A stretch of DNA of 64,000 nt, from contig JAHFSD010000002.1 in assembly GCA_023265925.1 (NCBI GenBank), positions 2,569-66,568 of the forward strand. The letters run 5' to 3'. The position numbers were made by a program, and so were the translations under genes. Shown here in pieces: positions 37,160 through 40,294 of this stretch; positions within the stretch are counted from its first letter, which is position 1, and each line of letters begins with the position of its first letter. The notes under the pieces were generated by a model. It did not search any database. It worked only from the letters and a program-made list of their open reading frames with translations, and had not been told where the DNA came from. This DNA comes from an archaeon. Lineage in GTDB: Archaea; Nanobdellota; Nanobdellia; Woesearchaeales; GW2011-AR9.

Positions 37160-40100
37160 TCACCGTTCCCGTTTCTCCCGCACCAGTATCAGATGATACC
37201 CGAATTGCGTCTTCACCGGCTCAGAAATTTCTCCGATATTGAGAGCAAAAGCAGTTTGTTCAAATTCCGGCACCATCGCTCCCTTCCCGAACCAGCCTAA
37301 ATCCCCCCCATTATCTTTCGACCCGGGATCCTGAGAATATTTCTGGGCATACTCGGCAAAATTGGCCGCAGTAACATTTTTTCTGATTTCCTCAATAAGC
37401 GCCAGCGCTTCCTCTTCCGTTTTATTTTCAGTGGAAATCAAAATATGGGCAGCCTGGACTTCCGGCTTGGACTGGAAGAAAACATTGTTCTCCTGCTGGC
37501 AATCGTAATCCACAATCCAGGTAATGATTCGCCCCTGGCCATAACTTTGGGTGTCATAAAACTTCTGGAAACATTTTAATCCGTGTCCCTCAAAGAAAAA
37601 CAGTTTGGTAAACGTGCCAGCCGCCTGCAGCGGATCAGCCAGCAGATAGACGTAGCCTTCTCCCTGAGGGATCAGGACGACGGAAAAGCCCGTTTTCTGC
37701 TGCCCGGCCAATTCTTTTTCGAAAACACTTTCTTTTGTGGCATACACTAGGGAGTTGGGAGTTATCTCTGGATTGCTTTCAAAGCTGGCATTCCAGGTTG
37801 TGGTATCGATGTGCAAGGCAAAATTCTGTCCCTGCACCGAGCCAGGACAGCGCAGTTCCACATCAGAGAGCCTCTCGCAGCTCTGGAAACCGGAAAGGTA
37901 GCCAGGCCAGGGAGCAATCCATCTATCGGCTTCGGTCGACTGCACTTCAGCGTAAATCGTCTCGGCCTCCGGTTCGCTGGTGTTAAACGTTGTTTTCAAA
38001 TAGTTGATGGCATCTGCTCGATTGAGCTTCTTCACTTTTTGATACATGACCGCTTTCCTAAAATCCCAGCTGCCAAAATGGCCCCAGACACCGGCTTTGC
38101 CGACCATGTCTTCCGAAGTGATGAAATAATCCGTGGGCGCAGCGCAATGGGTATAGCGGATAACGGAGGCAATTTGCTCTGAAGTTAATCCCTCTCGGTT
38201 AAGTGTCTTAATCGCGTCGGACTTTTCCTGCACGATAATTTCATTGAGAAGACCGATCTCCCGCAGGGGATCTTTCCCAAACTGGTCCAGTTCTTCAAAG
38301 GCTGAGTTTTGTCCGCAATTCAGCATGCGGATAAGGCCGACGGTCACTTTTTCATCGTCAGTGAGCAGGGACTTGCCTACCCAATGGGCACCATACCCCA
38401 ATTGATTTCCTCCGTCAAACGTTACCGGCCTATCGGCAATAGCCTTGAACCAATGGCCAAAATCCCACCAGGAGGTGATGATGCTATTTTCCGGAGCTTC
38501 CGTTTTGATTTTAATTAAGGTGTTGTACCAGGCATCATTAATGCTGGGAACAGAATTATAAGCCTGGCTGTACCCGGATTTAATCGGGCTAAGGAGGAGG
38601 AAGCCCAATGCTAAAAAAAAGATTGTTTTCATGATAACAGGACTTAATTTTAATTCTTTGGCCGTCCAGCGGGAGGCATAATACCAGCTGATGCCCATAA
38701 ATGCACCAAGGCCCATGGCAAACGCTGGTGTAAGTTGTAAAATGAACCGTATACCTTTGGTGGTGGCAAAGGCCGAGGCGGCAAACCACATCGCCAGGAA
38801 GAAAGCTATTTTAAAGTCCCATTTTCCGTGTTCATCTTTTCTGAACGCCGTCAGCAGGATGCCGGCTATCGCCAGGGCAAAATAGAGCTGGCCGTCAAAT
38901 TGTTCAATGACATTGGAAAATGCGGGGACGTTCAATTCGGCAACCGTGGTGCGGATGTTGGGCCAGTAGGAGCTTACCGCGACAGCTTTCAAACGGAGAA
39001 AACCCAAAGGACCAAACACGACCCGGATAAGTTGGTTAAAAGAGGTAAAGACGCTGACAAATAGGGCCGAGGTAAGAAGATATGTTCCTATAACTGTGAC
39101 GGCATTAGTGAACGGGGATGATTTTATCAGTGCGGGGATCGTTTTTAGGTTTATCAGCAGCAGATAGAGCAGGTACACACCCATTGTTATGAAAATAAAC
39201 GTTGCAATGTACCACCAGCCCGTCCAGGCAAAGGCAAAGACGCCGGTGGCAAAACCGGCGAGACTCATCCAGAAAATTTTCTTTTTCAATGTCCCGGCAT
39301 CCAGTGCTTCCAGAAACAGCCAGGTGATTAACACCGGAAAAAAGACCGCATAGACGTCCGTATCAGAGCTTTCTCCGGTGGTTCGGGCCACAAAAAAGCT
39401 GGAAACGGCGAGGAGCATTGCGGTAAAAAATCCGCCCACATTGTTCTTGGTGATAATCCTTCCAATGAAAAAAGCCGGGATGACCGTCAGGGCCGAGAAG
39501 ACCGTTCCCACCAGAAAAAAGGTGAACATCAGCGGAAATGTGCCAAACAGGTTTAGGAAGCGGTGCCACCAGGCGCCAAACCAATGGTGGAAATTCCATT
39601 CTCCCAAATCTCCTAAAGGAGCCAGGCGATAGCCATCAATGATTTTTCCGTCCCTGATTTCACTGCCCGGATAGCCGTTCTTCAGGACATATTCTGTCTG
39701 CCGGAAATAATAGTAAGGATCAATACCGAGGAGATAGGTCGTCCCCTGATCGTCCCGGAACTGGTTTTTGTACTGCTGGGAAAGTTGTTTAATCTGCGCA
39801 TCGATCTGCTGCTTATTCTGCTGACGGGTCTTTTCCCATTCTGTTGCTGCCAGGACTTGCCGGTTTTGCTCTGGCAGGTTGGGGTATTGCTGGCTGATCT
39901 GCTGCTTAATTTGATCCTGATAAAAATTAAAAACTGCCCGCTCCGCCCAACTATCGGCAATCGGCAGCCGCAGCGGCATCGTGCGGAGGTAGATCGAAAT
40001 AGACATCGCCAGCAGGATGCAGGCCAGCGGGATTATCCAGCGGGAATGGGTATTCCAGAACTGCTTAACCTTGTTCCAGTCCAGGGAAATCTCCTCATCT

Positions 40101-40294
40101 GATTGCTTCGCGTGCTTCTTTTCTTCATGGTGATGATGTATTTCCGGCTGATGCTGGGTATGCTGGGCCTTTGCCGGCTCTCCAGTTGATTCTTTCTTCC
40201 ACCATCCTTTCAGTTTTGCTCCTAGTTTGGAGAAATCAATTACAACGTCATCATCCTTTTTGGGTTCTTTTTTAGTTTCTTCTGTCACCCGCAA
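37160..40294 (-). CDS. aglB: archaeal oligosaccharyltransferase AglB (STT3 family) fused to a C-terminal parvulin (PpiC-type) peptidyl-prolyl isomerase domain
   Basis: Multi-TM N-terminal domain, WWDFG (WWDYG-type) motif. C-terminus [33 protein letters not shown]...[10 protein letters not shown] is a classic parvulin signature. His-rich cytoplasmic N-terminus. Confidence 0.8.
   Translation of the reverse strand: [1044 protein letters not shown]

What the first reader, a model, noticed from the sequence alone, without database searches (positions are those of the whole stretch)
37160..40294. AglB oligosaccharyltransferase fused to a C-terminal parvulin-type PPIase domain
The C-terminal ~110 residues (about 37160-37490) carry an unmistakable PpiC/parvulin signature ([26 protein letters not shown]...FGYHLILV). 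They follow a complete STT3/AglB catalytic core (WWDFG). Topologically the fused domain should be extracytoplasmic. This would couple prolyl isomerisation or chaperoning directly to N-glycosylation of emerging S-layer/secreted proteins, a physical coupling of folding and glycosylation reminiscent of the eukaryotic OST-associated oxidoreductases. I am not aware of a described AglB-PPIase fusion. The N-terminus also has a His-rich (HHHH) cytoplasmic segment.
Basis: partly seen in the sequence, partly recalled or inferred. Interest (0 to 1): 0.7.

Follow-up and report, generated by a model that had tools for sequence, protein, structure and literature searches.

The report
Archaeal glycosylation enzyme fused to foldase
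An uncultured DPANN archaeon makes its protein N-glycosylating enzyme (AglB) as one chain with a protein-folding catalyst (a parvulin prolyl isomerase) on the outside of the cell, and relatives carry a different folding catalyst at the same spot, which suggests that glycosylation and folding of secreted proteins are physically coupled in these organisms.

Summary
ORF 37160-40294 (minus strand, 1044 aa) encodes a complete STT3/AglB oligosaccharyltransferase followed, after an 11-residue linker, by a PpiC/parvulin domain (Pfam E 1.9e-30).

It is not an assembly or frameshift artefact. 78 of 120 compared sequences and 35 of the 80 best species-level genome loci have the same in-frame fusion. The parvulin is the most conserved part of the protein.

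There is no transmembrane segment after residue 571, so the parvulin lies outside the cell alongside the WWDFG catalytic domain. It also carries a conserved N-glycosylation sequon.

The main new result is that sister AglBs carry other folding modules at the same C-terminal position. Twenty 50%-identity clusters have an FKBP-type PPIase and one has a VKOR-type thioredoxin-like domain. The parvulin and FKBP domains never co-occur. Unfused relatives lost the domain cleanly and have no adjacent PPIase gene.

The best reading is an OST with a built-in PrsA/SurA-like foldase or holdase that acts on the same newly exported chains. This resembles eukaryotic OST accessory factors (Ost3/6, FKBP11) but is covalent. 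PPIase activity and functional coupling are inferred, not shown.

I found no description in the searchable literature. The sequences exist only as auto-annotated MAG proteins. I rate it a new variant of a known kind, with moderately high interest.

The parts
37160..40294 (-). Whole ORF: AglB-parvulin fusion, 1044 aa from TTG (the likely true start is GTG at 40288, giving 1042 aa). The stop codon is at 37160-37162.
40040..40294 (-). Cytoplasmic N-terminal tail (residues 1-85). It is charged and disordered, with an amphipathic helix at 21-32 in the '[18 protein letters not shown]' motif, and a second copy of the motif ('[12 protein letters not shown]') just before TM1.
   Evidence: pLDDT is below 50 for residues 1-20 and 34-69, with helix 21-32. 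It is the least conserved region, at 0.33 mean pairwise identity.
40127..40138 (-). HHHH run (residues 53-56) within the disordered tail.
   Evidence: Sequence. His enrichment recurs without being conserved: 63 of 131 tails have at least 4 His.
38582..40039 (-). Membrane domain of AglB (residues 86-571), about 13 TM helices. It includes a helical external loop 1 (residues 111-177) with a near-invariant QQYPNLP motif.
   Evidence: Hydropathy, AF2 helices, Foldseek matches to PglB, STT3 and AglB, invariant columns.
39719..39721 (-). D192, the catalytic Asp of external loop 1 (in GIDPYYY).
   Evidence: 120 of 120 conserved.
39356..39364 (-). D311-T312-D313, the DxD metal and catalytic motif (in TTGESSDTD).
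   Evidence: D311 and D313 are 120 of 120 conserved.
38936..38947 (-). T450-V451-A452-E453, the TIXE-type motif of external loop 5.
   Evidence: T450, A452 and E453 are 120 of 120 conserved. The surrounding loop has lower pLDDT, 69-73, as expected for flexible EL5.
38456..38470 (-). WWDFG (residues 609-613), the signature sequon-binding motif of STT3, AglB and PglB.
   Evidence: W609, W610, D611 and G613 are 120 of 120 conserved.
37499..38581 (-). Extracytoplasmic C-terminal domain of AglB (residues 572-932), ending in the conserved 'W.VDYxC' strand. It contains six conserved Cys and sequons at N771 and N835.
   Evidence: No TM after residue 571. Model and fold matches. Conserved Cys. Sequons.
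37466..37498 (-). Short linker (residues 933-943, [11 protein letters not shown]) between AglB and the parvulin.
   Evidence: pLDDT is about 91-92. The spacing from the W.VDY motif to the catalytic His is exactly 19 residues in 57 fused proteins. Unfused relatives end within 0-25 residues of this point.
37166..37465 (-). Parvulin (PpiC-type) PPIase domain, residues 944-1043. It has the tetrad H950 / D989 / T1029 / H1034 and proline-pocket residues M1007 and F1011.
   Evidence: Pfam E 1.9e-30. PDB sequence matches to SurA and PrsA at E about 1e-23. Foldseek to PrsA 6xd8 gives TM 0.85, rmsd 2.4 A and 48% identity. Residue conservation. Most conserved region, at 0.59 mean pairwise identity.
37370..37378 (-). 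N973-V-T, an N-glycosylation sequon inside the parvulin domain. A second sequon, N957-K-T, lies at 37418-37426.
   Evidence: A sequon is present at this column in 43 of 78 fused proteins.
31823..37163 (-). Co-directional downstream glycosylation cluster: GT2 (36414-37163), DUF2304 membrane protein (36067-36414), GT4 (34892-36070), GT4 (33623-34858), methyltransferase (32871-33626), GT1-family (31823-32902).
   Evidence: Pfam. Gene calls on the source contig. The same order is found next to the unfused orthologue in L001.

Best explanation
**What it is.** The gene encodes the single-subunit archaeal oligosaccharyltransferase AglB of a Woesearchaeota/Nanoarchaeota-type DPANN archaeon. Its extracytoplasmic C-terminal domain is extended by a PrsA/SurA-like parvulin prolyl isomerase.

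**Topology.** The N-terminus is in the cytoplasm, about 13 TM helices follow, and everything from residue 572 to the end is outside the cell.

**Proposed mechanism.**
- Secreted, S-layer and surface proteins leave the Sec channel unfolded.
- AglB transfers the lipid-linked glycan to Asn in N-x-S/T sequons, which must still be flexible.
- The parvulin is held next to the OST's external domain by a short linker of fixed length.
- It binds the same unfolded chains and catalyses Xaa-Pro isomerisation and/or acts as a holdase.
- Folding is thereby timed to follow glycan transfer, instead of competing with it.

**Shown versus inferred.**
- Shown: domain identities, intact catalytic residues in both halves, external location, strong purifying selection, wide conservation of the fusion, and alternative PPIase or oxidoreductase modules at the same position in relatives.
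- Inferred: PPIase or chaperone activity, and that its clients are AglB's substrates.
For: - **Domains.** Pfam assigns STT3 and Rotamase well above cutoff.
- **AglB residues.** The catalytic residues D192, D311xD313, E453 and WWD609-611 are invariant in 120 sequences.
- **Parvulin residues.** H950, H1034 and F1011 are present in 78 of 78 fused proteins, M1007 in 77, T/S1029 in 78, and Asp or Cys at position 989 in 68.
- **Structure.** AF2 gives pLDDT 89.5 and pTM 0.82, with an ordered linker. Foldseek matches both PglB/STT3/AglB and PrsA/SurA parvulins.
- **Location.** No TM follows residue 571. All four query sequons lie after TM13, and the sequon at N973 is conserved in 43 of 78.
- **The fusion is real.** It is seen in 78 of 120 compared sequences, 21 of the top 150 50%-identity representatives and 35 of 80 GTDB species loci.
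- **Constraint.** The parvulin is the most conserved region, at 0.59 mean pairwise identity.
- **Convergence.** 20 representative clusters carry FKBP_C instead (E from 2e-15 to 7e-23 on seven of the tested tails). One carries a VKOR-type Trx-like domain (3kp8, E 3.9e-21). No protein carries both a parvulin and an FKBP. 18 of 20 FKBP tails also carry a sequon.
- **Context.** The gene heads a glycosylation cluster.
- **Closest relatives of the parvulin.** These are bacterial extracytoplasmic foldases.
Against: - There is no biochemical evidence for isomerase activity or for coupling.
- 11 of 78 fused proteins have Gly at the Cys/Asp catalytic position, so catalysis may not be the selected function everywhere.
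- The domain was lost cleanly many times: 42 of 120 sequences and 41 of 80 species loci are unfused, with no adjacent PPIase gene. The fusion is therefore dispensable.
- In the one structurally studied eukaryotic case of a PPIase next to an OST (FKBP11), the catalytic site is buried and an adaptor role is proposed (PMC12804085).
Confidence: 0.62

Rival explanations
1. Generic membrane-tethered secretion foldase. The parvulin (or the FKBP in relatives) is an ordinary extracellular foldase like the PrsA lipoprotein or TM-anchored PpiD. AglB merely supplies a convenient membrane anchor and co-expression, with no specific link to glycosylation substrates.
For: The closest characterised relatives are general foldases (PrsA, SurA). 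The domain is frequently lost without replacement nearby. DPANN genomes are small, and gene fusion is a common form of streamlining (general knowledge).
Against: Two unrelated PPIase folds and a Trx-like module were each attached to the same C-terminal position of the same enzyme, and never together. That is hard to explain if any anchor would do. The linker length is tightly fixed at 19 residues in 57 proteins and is predicted to be ordered. This suggests a defined geometry relative to AglB, not a loose tether.
Confidence: 0.2
2. Non-catalytic adaptor or cis-acting regulatory module. The parvulin fold serves as a binding platform, for substrates, for another envelope component or for AglB's own flexible EL5 loop or a conserved proline. 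It does not act as an isomerase on client proteins. This would parallel the inactive SurA P1 and PpiD parvulin domains, or FKBP11 at the human translocon.
For: 11 of 78 family members have Gly at the Cys/Asp position. P0167 carries a degenerate parvulin-like tail scoring below the Pfam cutoff. FKBP11 at OST-A is proposed to be an adaptor with a buried catalytic site (PMC12804085). The ordered linker suggests stable docking onto AglB.
Against: In the query and in 68 of 78 relatives the full His/Asp(Cys)/Thr/His tetrad and the proline pocket are intact. The domain is the most conserved part of the protein. Independent acquisition of a second, catalytically canonical-looking PPIase family (FKBP) points to isomerase or chaperone function as the selected property.
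Confidence: 0.15
3. Artefactual fusion: a frameshift, a mis-assembly or a missed stop codon joined two separate genes.
For: None found. This is a single metagenome-derived contig, so the possibility had to be considered.
Against: The reading frame is continuous through a conserved junction. 77 other independent database proteins down to 41% identity and 35 GTDB species genomes have the same architecture. The identical protein is seen in two sources.
Confidence: 0.01

Closest known systems
AglB / STT3 / PglB oligosaccharyltransferases (GT-C fold; e.g. A. fulgidus AglB 3waj/5gmy, C. lari PglB 3rce/6gxc)
   Same: A 13-TM domain plus an external C-terminal domain. The EL1 Asp, DxD, TIXE-type EL5 motif and WWDxG are all present and invariant. 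Foldseek E values run from 1.8e-20 to 3e-12. The gene sits in a glycosylation cluster.
   Different: An extra C-terminal parvulin domain. A long helical EL1 insert with a QQYPNLP motif. A disordered, His- and Lys-rich cytoplasmic N-tail. Sequence similarity to solved OSTs is low (best phmmer E 4.9e-9, to PglB). The DK/MI-motif position appears to be a hybrid M730-x-x-K733-x-x-x-W737; this is an inference that I did not verify structurally.
PrsA (Gram-positive lipoprotein foldase) and SurA / PpiD (Gram-negative periplasmic or membrane-anchored parvulin chaperones)
   Same: An extracytoplasmic, membrane-proximal parvulin acting after Sec export. These are the best sequence and fold matches (PrsA NF002827 E 3.5e-27; SurA and PrsA E about 1e-23; TM 0.85-0.87, 38-48% identity). 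It is of the non-phospho-specific type, with no basic Pin1 loop.
   Different: Only the roughly 100-residue parvulin core is present. The N- and C-terminal chaperone domains of PrsA and SurA are absent: the hits cover profile positions 126-227 of 285 and score far below the equivalog cutoffs. The anchor is an enzyme (AglB), not a lipid or a single TM helix. The host is an archaeon.
Eukaryotic OST accessory folding factors: thioredoxin-like Ost3/Ost6 (TUSC3/MagT1) subunits, and FKBP11 bound beside OST-A at the human translocon (PDB 9n9j; PMC12804085)
   Same: A folding catalyst or chaperone-fold protein is physically positioned next to the STT3 catalytic subunit on the exoplasmic or lumenal side. 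The DPANN clade even includes FKBP-fused and Trx-like-fused AglBs, which mirrors both eukaryotic solutions.
   Different: Here the link is a covalent fusion in a single-subunit enzyme, not a separate subunit. The domains are not orthologous to Ost3/6 or FKBP11. FKBP11 is proposed to be an adaptor with a buried active site, whereas here the catalytic residues are conserved. The role of Ost3/6 comes from general knowledge and was not tested here.
Free archaeal parvulins (Cenarchaeum symbiosum PinA 2rqs, Nitrosopumilus maritimus NmPin 2m08)
   Same: The same fold and an archaeal host. E values are 5e-19 and 7e-18, with TM 0.76.
   Different: Those are small stand-alone proteins of Thaumarchaeota. 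The 2021 census of archaeal PPIases found parvulins only in Euryarchaeota and Thaumarchaeota and reports no fusion (PMC8530231). The domain here scores higher against bacterial PrsA and SurA.

Membership tests
STT3/AglB/PglB oligosaccharyltransferase | N-terminal multi-spanning (about 13 TM) GT-C membrane domain followed by an external globular domain | tested here: met
   About 13 hydrophobic segments up to residue 571 and none after. AF2 helices. Foldseek to PglB, STT3 and AglB with probability 1.00. Pfam STT3 E 3.6e-42.
STT3/AglB/PglB oligosaccharyltransferase | Acidic catalytic residues: Asp in EL1 and a DxD/DxE-type motif | tested here: met
   D192, D311 and D313 are invariant in 120 sequences.
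STT3/AglB/PglB oligosaccharyltransferase | TIXE/SVSE motif in external loop 5 | tested here: met
   T450-V-A-E453 is invariant apart from V/I. It lies in a lower-confidence loop, as expected for flexible EL5.
STT3/AglB/PglB oligosaccharyltransferase | WWDYG motif in the external domain | tested here: met
   WWDFG at 609-613; W, W, D and G are 120 of 120 conserved.
STT3/AglB/PglB oligosaccharyltransferase | DK or MI motif forming the Ser/Thr pocket | tested here: inconclusive
   An invariant D729-M730-x-x-K733-x-x-V736-W737 segment follows a beta strand about 115 residues after WWDFG. It looks like a hybrid of DxxK and MxxI. No residue-level structural superposition was available.
STT3/AglB/PglB oligosaccharyltransferase | Transfer of a lipid-linked glycan to Asn of N-x-S/T | not testable with these tools
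   Needs an enzyme assay or glycoproteomics.
Parvulin (PpiC-type) PPIase | Significant match to the Rotamase profiles | tested here: met
   PF13616 scores 106.2 bits (cutoff 22.5) and PF00639 scores 95.7 bits (cutoff 21.7).
Parvulin (PpiC-type) PPIase | Beta-alpha3-beta-alpha-beta2 parvulin fold | tested here: met
   The model has E944-954, H960-973, H979-986, E998-1003, H1009-1017, E1027-1029 and E1032-1043 at pLDDT above 90. TM 0.85-0.87 and rmsd 2.1-2.4 A to the PrsA and SurA parvulin domains.
Parvulin (PpiC-type) PPIase | Catalytic tetrad His / Cys-or-Asp / Thr(Ser) / His and a hydrophobic proline pocket | tested here: met
   The query has H950, D989, T1029, H1034, M1007 and F1011. Across 78 fused proteins the two His are invariant. 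Position 989 is D in 64, C in 4 and G in 11 by alignment-column count, which includes one stray tail residue from an unfused row. The residue equivalences to Pin1 and Par14 come from my own knowledge of those proteins.
Parvulin (PpiC-type) PPIase | Measurable peptidyl-prolyl cis/trans isomerase activity | not testable with these tools
   Needs a protease-coupled or NMR exchange assay.
PrsA / SurA foldases (as family members, not just analogues) | Parvulin domain embedded in N- and C-terminal chaperone (NC) regions, with a lipobox (PrsA) or signal peptide (SurA) | tested here: not met
   NCBIfam PrsA and SurA models match only their parvulin segment (for example positions 126-227 of 285). Scores are 95 and 67 bits against cutoffs of 343 and 394. 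The domain is a C-terminal appendage of AglB. It may work like PrsA or SurA, but it is not a member of those families.
Pin1-type phospho-specific parvulins | Basic phosphate-binding loop (K63/R68/R69 in Pin1) between beta1 and alpha1 | tested here: not met
   The corresponding loop reads [10 protein letters not shown] (residues 954-963), with no basic cluster (read directly from the sequence). Pin1 matches are weaker, at E about 1e-10.

The most novel reading that the evidence does not exclude
DPANN archaea of the Woesearchaeota/Nanoarchaeota lineage have repeatedly built a one-polypeptide 'glycosylate-then-fold' machine. They did so by attaching different extracytoplasmic folding catalysts (parvulin, FKBP, or a VKOR-type thioredoxin-like oxidoreductase) to the same C-terminal position of AglB. 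This would be a prokaryotic, covalent counterpart of the eukaryotic OST with its Ost3/6 oxidoreductase and FKBP11 accessory proteins. It would imply that kinetic coordination between N-glycosylation and folding is a general requirement, solved convergently in archaea and eukaryotes. These proteins would also be a minimal system in which that coupling can be dissected.
Probability: 0.45. Interest if true: 0.78.

Novelty: new variant of a known kind. Interest (0 to 1): 0.64.

Why it matters
How cells coordinate N-glycosylation with protein folding is an open mechanistic question, because glycosylation needs an unfolded sequon while folding removes it. The question has been studied almost only in the multi-subunit eukaryotic OST.

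A single-chain archaeal OST that carries its own prolyl isomerase would give a minimal, genetically simple system. Natural variants carry an FKBP or a thioredoxin-like domain instead, and natural 'deletion' variants carry nothing. Together these could test whether tethering a foldase to the OST changes site occupancy, folding yield or substrate range.

The finding also extends the known distribution of parvulins in Archaea to DPANN lineages, where a published census found none (PMC8530231). It adds an extracellular protein-folding component to organisms whose surface proteins are thought to mediate their symbiotic lifestyle.

In practical terms, OST-foldase fusions could be useful parts for glyco-engineering.

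Tried and rejected
- **Frameshift or mis-assembly.** Rejected. The frame is continuous across the junction, and the same fusion appears in 77 other proteins and 35 species genomes.
- **Split gene in unfused relatives.** Rejected. tblastn found no parvulin remnant in the syntenic locus L001 or in L002. Among the 80 species loci, no separate parvulin or FKBP ORF lies within +-3 kb of any AglB-only gene.
- **A second parvulin or STT3 in the window.** None found.
- **Literature.** Eight full-text searches and four papers read found no description of an AglB/STT3-PPIase fusion. The library lacks most subscription journals, so absence is not proof.
- **Pfam scan of all 149 representatives through alignment A2.** I replaced it with my own parvulin and FKBP HMMs and Pfam on ten tails.
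- **Foldseek against AFDB50.** The library was unavailable.
- **Geometry of the parvulin relative to the OST active site.** Model coordinates are not exposed to the script environment, so only pLDDT and secondary structure could be used.
- **Tree of the 50%-identity representatives.** It is star-like and poorly resolved, so I do not claim a number of independent gains. The NJ tree of the closer set supports an old fusion with multiple losses, but it has no support values.
- **Origin of the parvulin domain.** Bacterial transfer versus archaeal origin is unresolved. The domain scores somewhat better against bacterial PrsA and SurA than against thaumarchaeal parvulins. No phylogeny of the domain was made.
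- **Identity of the source genome.** It is not among the GTDB representatives (best hit 65-67% identity). The assignment to Woesearchaeota/Nanoarchaeota-type DPANN rests on the names of the nearest relatives.

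
Full report

Yes. The ORF listing finds a 1044-aa ORF at exactly 37160-40294 on the minus strand. Pfam assigns STT3 to residues 171-544 (E 3.6e-42), STT3-PglB_core to 604-669, and the PpiC-type rotamase families to 943-1041. The rotamase scores are Rotamase_3 E 1.9e-30 and Rotamase E 3.4e-27, both about 75-85 bits above their curated cutoffs. NCBIfam independently matches the parvulin segments of PrsA, SurA, NifM and PpiC, and weakly matches the archaeal STT3 and PglB models.

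The DNA across the junction (…GATTACGATTGCCAGCAGGAGAACAATGTTTTCTTCCAGTCCAAGCCGGAAGTCCAGGCTGCCCATATT…) reads through without a stop or a homopolymer run. A GTG two codons inside the ORF, preceded by AGGGTG, is the likelier start and gives the 1042-aa protein deposited in NCBI and ENA.

**2. Is the fusion genuine?**

A search of 5.8 billion clustered proteins returned 743 relatives. I compared the query and the best 119 homologues. Of these 120 sequences, 78 carry the parvulin in the same chain, down to 41% identity, and 42 lack it.

The unfused proteins stop 0-25 residues after a conserved 'W.VDYxC' strand (C932 in the query). That is exactly where the fused proteins continue, through a short linker, into '…AAHILIS…'.

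In GTDB species-representative genomes, 487 stretches encode a relative. Of the best 80 loci, 35 are AglB+parvulin and 41 are AglB-only. The record titles name uncultured Woesearchaeota, Nanoarchaeota or Nanoarchaeia MAGs. Many TPA assemblies are titled 'uncultured Methanosarcinales', which is probably a placeholder. An artefact is excluded.

**3. Anatomy.**

- **Membrane domain.** Hydropathy shows about 13 TM segments between residues 86 and 571 and nothing hydrophobic after that (maximum 19-residue Kyte-Doolittle mean 1.0).
- **Model.** An AlphaFold2 model built on a 94-sequence alignment is confident (mean pLDDT 89.5, pTM 0.82).
  - The N-tail (1-20, 34-69) is disordered, with an amphipathic helix at 21-32.
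  - External loop 1 is a three-helix insert (111-177).
  - EL5 (about 431-460) has lower confidence.
  - The external domain is 572-932 and the parvulin is 944-1043, at pLDDT above 90.
  - The 11-residue linker has pLDDT of about 91-92.
- **Fold matches.** Foldseek against the PDB matches the first roughly 930 residues to PglB (E 1.8e-20), eukaryotic STT3A/B and A. fulgidus AglB. It matches the last 100 residues to the PrsA and SurA parvulin domains, with target TM 0.85-0.87, rmsd 2.1-2.4 A and 38-48% identity.
- **OST catalytic positions.** All are invariant in 120 sequences: D192, D311-x-D313, E453 in T-V-A-E, and W609-W610-D611.
- **Parvulin catalytic positions.** Among the 78 fused proteins, H950, H1034 and F1011 are invariant, M1007 is present in 77 and T/S1029 in 78. 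The Cys/Asp position (D989) is Asp in 64, Cys in 4 and Gly in 11 by alignment-column count.
- **Specificity type.** There is no Pin1-type basic loop, so this is a non-phospho-specific parvulin.
- **Constraint.** The parvulin is the most conserved region among fused proteins, at 0.59 mean pairwise identity. The catalytic external part is 0.58, the TM core 0.49 and the N-tail 0.33.
- **Linker spacing.** The distance from the end of the W.VDY motif to the catalytic His is exactly 19 residues in 57 fused proteins. A handful have 27-45-residue acidic inserts.

**4. Location of the parvulin.**

STT3-family enzymes have their WWDxG domain on the exoplasmic face (established knowledge of PglB, AglB and STT3 structures). 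Here the parvulin is continuous with that domain, with no TM in between.

There is also independent support. All four N-x-S/T sequons of the query (N771, N835, N957, N973) lie after TM13, and two are inside the parvulin. The N973 sequon is present at the same alignment column in 43 of 78 fused proteins, far above the background for any column. The domain is therefore probably itself N-glycosylated, which is possible only outside the cell.

**5. The unexpected result: other folding catalysts at the same position.**

An exhaustive HMMER scan of 1.84 billion 50%-identity representatives found 1166 relatives at E<=1e-30. Among the top 150 representatives:

- 21 carry the parvulin (plus P0043 and P0117).
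- 20 carry a C-terminal FKBP-type PPIase. Pfam FKBP_C gives E from 2e-15 to 7e-23 on seven tested tails and 6e-6, still above cutoff, on an eighth.
- One (P0259, seen on several contigs) carries a thioredoxin-like domain with WCSHC. It matches the Trx-like domain of bacterial VKOR homologues (3kp8, E 3.9e-21).
- One has a degenerate parvulin-like tail, and several have acidic low-complexity tails.

No protein has both a parvulin and an FKBP. 18 of 20 FKBP tails have a sequon ('W..xN-I-S/T') in an insert after FDSS. NCBI names two of these proteins 'FKBP-type peptidyl-prolyl cis-trans isomerase [Candidatus Woesearchaeota archaeon]' and 'STT3 domain-containing protein [Nanoarchaeota archaeon]'.

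Two structurally unrelated PPIase families and a disulfide oxidoreductase module, each attached to the same external terminus of the same enzyme, is the strongest available argument for a functional link between the OST and folding catalysis. It argues against a chance fusion.

**6. Evolutionary pattern.**

An NJ tree of the AglB part of the 120 closer sequences has only fused proteins on its deep branches, with unfused ones nested inside. This suggests an old fusion and about nine or more losses. The tree is midpoint-rooted and has no support values.

The closest unfused relative (P0005, 68% identity) sits in the same gene order as the query: ATP-citrate lyase, AglB, GT2, DUF2304, GT4. It has no parvulin remnant in the 235-bp gap downstream. 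No AglB-only locus has a separate PPIase ORF within 3 kb. Losses are therefore clean deletions, and the fusion is advantageous but dispensable. The deeper representative tree is star-like, so I do not count gains.

**7. Context.**

The gene heads a co-directional cluster of GT2, DUF2304, two GT4s, a methyltransferase and a GT1-family enzyme. This fits a role in assembling and transferring an N-glycan. ATP-citrate lyase subunits lie upstream. The window also contains an archaeal ribosomal-protein cluster that includes S4e and L32e, so this is chromosomal archaeal DNA.

**8. Mechanism proposed.**

Newly exported, still unfolded proteins are scanned by AglB, and the sequon must be flexible for transfer (established for OSTs). 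The tethered parvulin, most similar to the post-translocation foldases PrsA and SurA, binds the same chains and accelerates Xaa-Pro isomerisation and/or holds them. Folding is thereby coordinated with glycan transfer.

- **Shown:** domains, residues, topology, conservation and convergence.
- **Inferred:** catalysis and shared clients.

I put about 0.6 on this model, about 0.2 on a generic tethered foldase with AglB as a mere anchor, and about 0.15 on a non-catalytic adaptor or cis-regulatory role. The adaptor rival is suggested by the 11 Gly variants and by the FKBP11 precedent. FKBP11 sits beside OST-A, but its active site is buried and it is thought to recruit CCDC134 (PMC12804085).

**9. 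Comparison with what is known, and novelty.**

The protein is a member of the STT3/AglB family (five of six sequence and structure criteria met, with the DK/MI motif inconclusive). Its C-terminal domain is a member of the parvulin family. It is not a PrsA or SurA family member, because the NC chaperone regions are absent and scores are far below the equivalog cutoffs. It may nevertheless work like them.

The concept of folding factors attached to an OST is known in eukaryotes (Ost3/6 thioredoxin-like subunits; FKBP11). A covalent AglB-PPIase was not found in eight full-text searches. The 2021 census of archaeal PPIases reports parvulins only in Euryarchaeota and Thaumarchaeota and mentions no fusion (PMC8530231). 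The 2024 review of archaeal N-glycosylation does not mention isomerases or fusions (PMC11407970). The sequences are public but only auto-annotated.

My verdict is a new variant of a known kind. It would be of real interest to people who study archaeal glycosylation and extracytoplasmic folding, chiefly because of the convergent parvulin, FKBP and Trx-like series and the natural unfused controls.

Noticed in passing
Relatives P0161, P0163, P0170, P0181, P0183, P0190, P0198, P0211, P0238, P0241, P0265 and others (C-terminal about 110 aa); P0259/P0272 (C-terminal about 90 aa): Sister AglBs of the same DPANN clade carry an FKBP-type PPIase (20 representative clusters) or a VKOR-type thioredoxin-like CxxC domain (1 cluster) in place of the parvulin, at the same C-terminal position. 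The parvulin and FKBP domains never occur together.
   Followed up: yes
window 40190-40246 (residues 17-35) and 40037-40090 (residues 69-86): The cytoplasmic N-tail contains a twice-repeated amphipathic motif, [18 protein letters not shown] and [18 protein letters not shown]. The second copy abuts TM1. Relatives have one to three copies ('I.IDFS..K.K.K.FF'). The function is unknown; it could bind the membrane or a partner.
   Followed up: partly
window 37499-38317 (residues 660-932: C660, C717, C806, C816, C908, C932): Six cysteines in the external AglB domain are invariant or at least 90% conserved across the clade. This suggests three extracellular disulfide bonds, which is interesting given the Trx-like-fused relative. 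The pairing could not be checked without model coordinates.
   Followed up: no
window 39764-39964 (residues 111-177), motif QQYPNLP at about 39872-39892 (residues 135-141): External loop 1 is expanded into a three-helix, Gln-rich insert with a near-invariant Q-Y-P-N-L-P…N motif. Its role is unknown. It appears to be a hallmark of this AglB clade.
   Followed up: no
window 38084-38110 (residues 729-737): The position expected for the DK/MI Ser/Thr-pocket motif holds an invariant D-M-x-x-K-x-x-V-W segment. It looks like a hybrid of the archaeal and eukaryotic DxxK motif and the bacterial MxxI motif. This is inferred from spacing and secondary structure only.
   Followed up: partly
window 40366-44143 (minus strand); also L001 2522-5878 and L002 4382-7398: ATP-citrate lyase-like genes (ATP-grasp/citrate-binding subunit 42902-44143 and CoA-ligase/citrate-synthase subunit 40366-42183, with an SDR between them) lie immediately upstream of AglB. 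This adjacency is conserved in two relatives. A metabolic gene pair conserved next to the OST is unexplained.
   Followed up: partly
window about 50200-62100 (plus strand): This stretch has high GC and strong purine skew. It is the archaeal ribosomal-protein cluster (L3, L4, L2, L22, S3, S4e, L5, L32e, S5), which is ordinary and confirms chromosomal archaeal origin.
   Followed up: yes
L005, L008, L013, L014, L017 and many other loci: Many GTDB-representative records carrying this DPANN-type AglB are titled 'uncultured Methanosarcinales archaeon' (TPA binchicken/ERP/SRP co-assemblies). This is probably placeholder or wrong taxonomy in the records.
   Followed up: no
L002 8001-10820 and 18714 onward (contig JAUYPX010000026.1): One Nanoarchaeota MAG encodes two unfused AglB paralogues (P0053, P0087) about 8 kb apart on the same contig. 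AglB duplication occurs in this clade.
   Followed up: no
P0106, P0108, P0118; P0121, P0137, P0182, P0192, P0213, P0230: Some relatives end in 55-100-residue acidic or Ser/Thr/Asn-rich low-complexity tails, either after the parvulin or directly after AglB. These may be extended, heavily glycosylated spacers.
   Followed up: no
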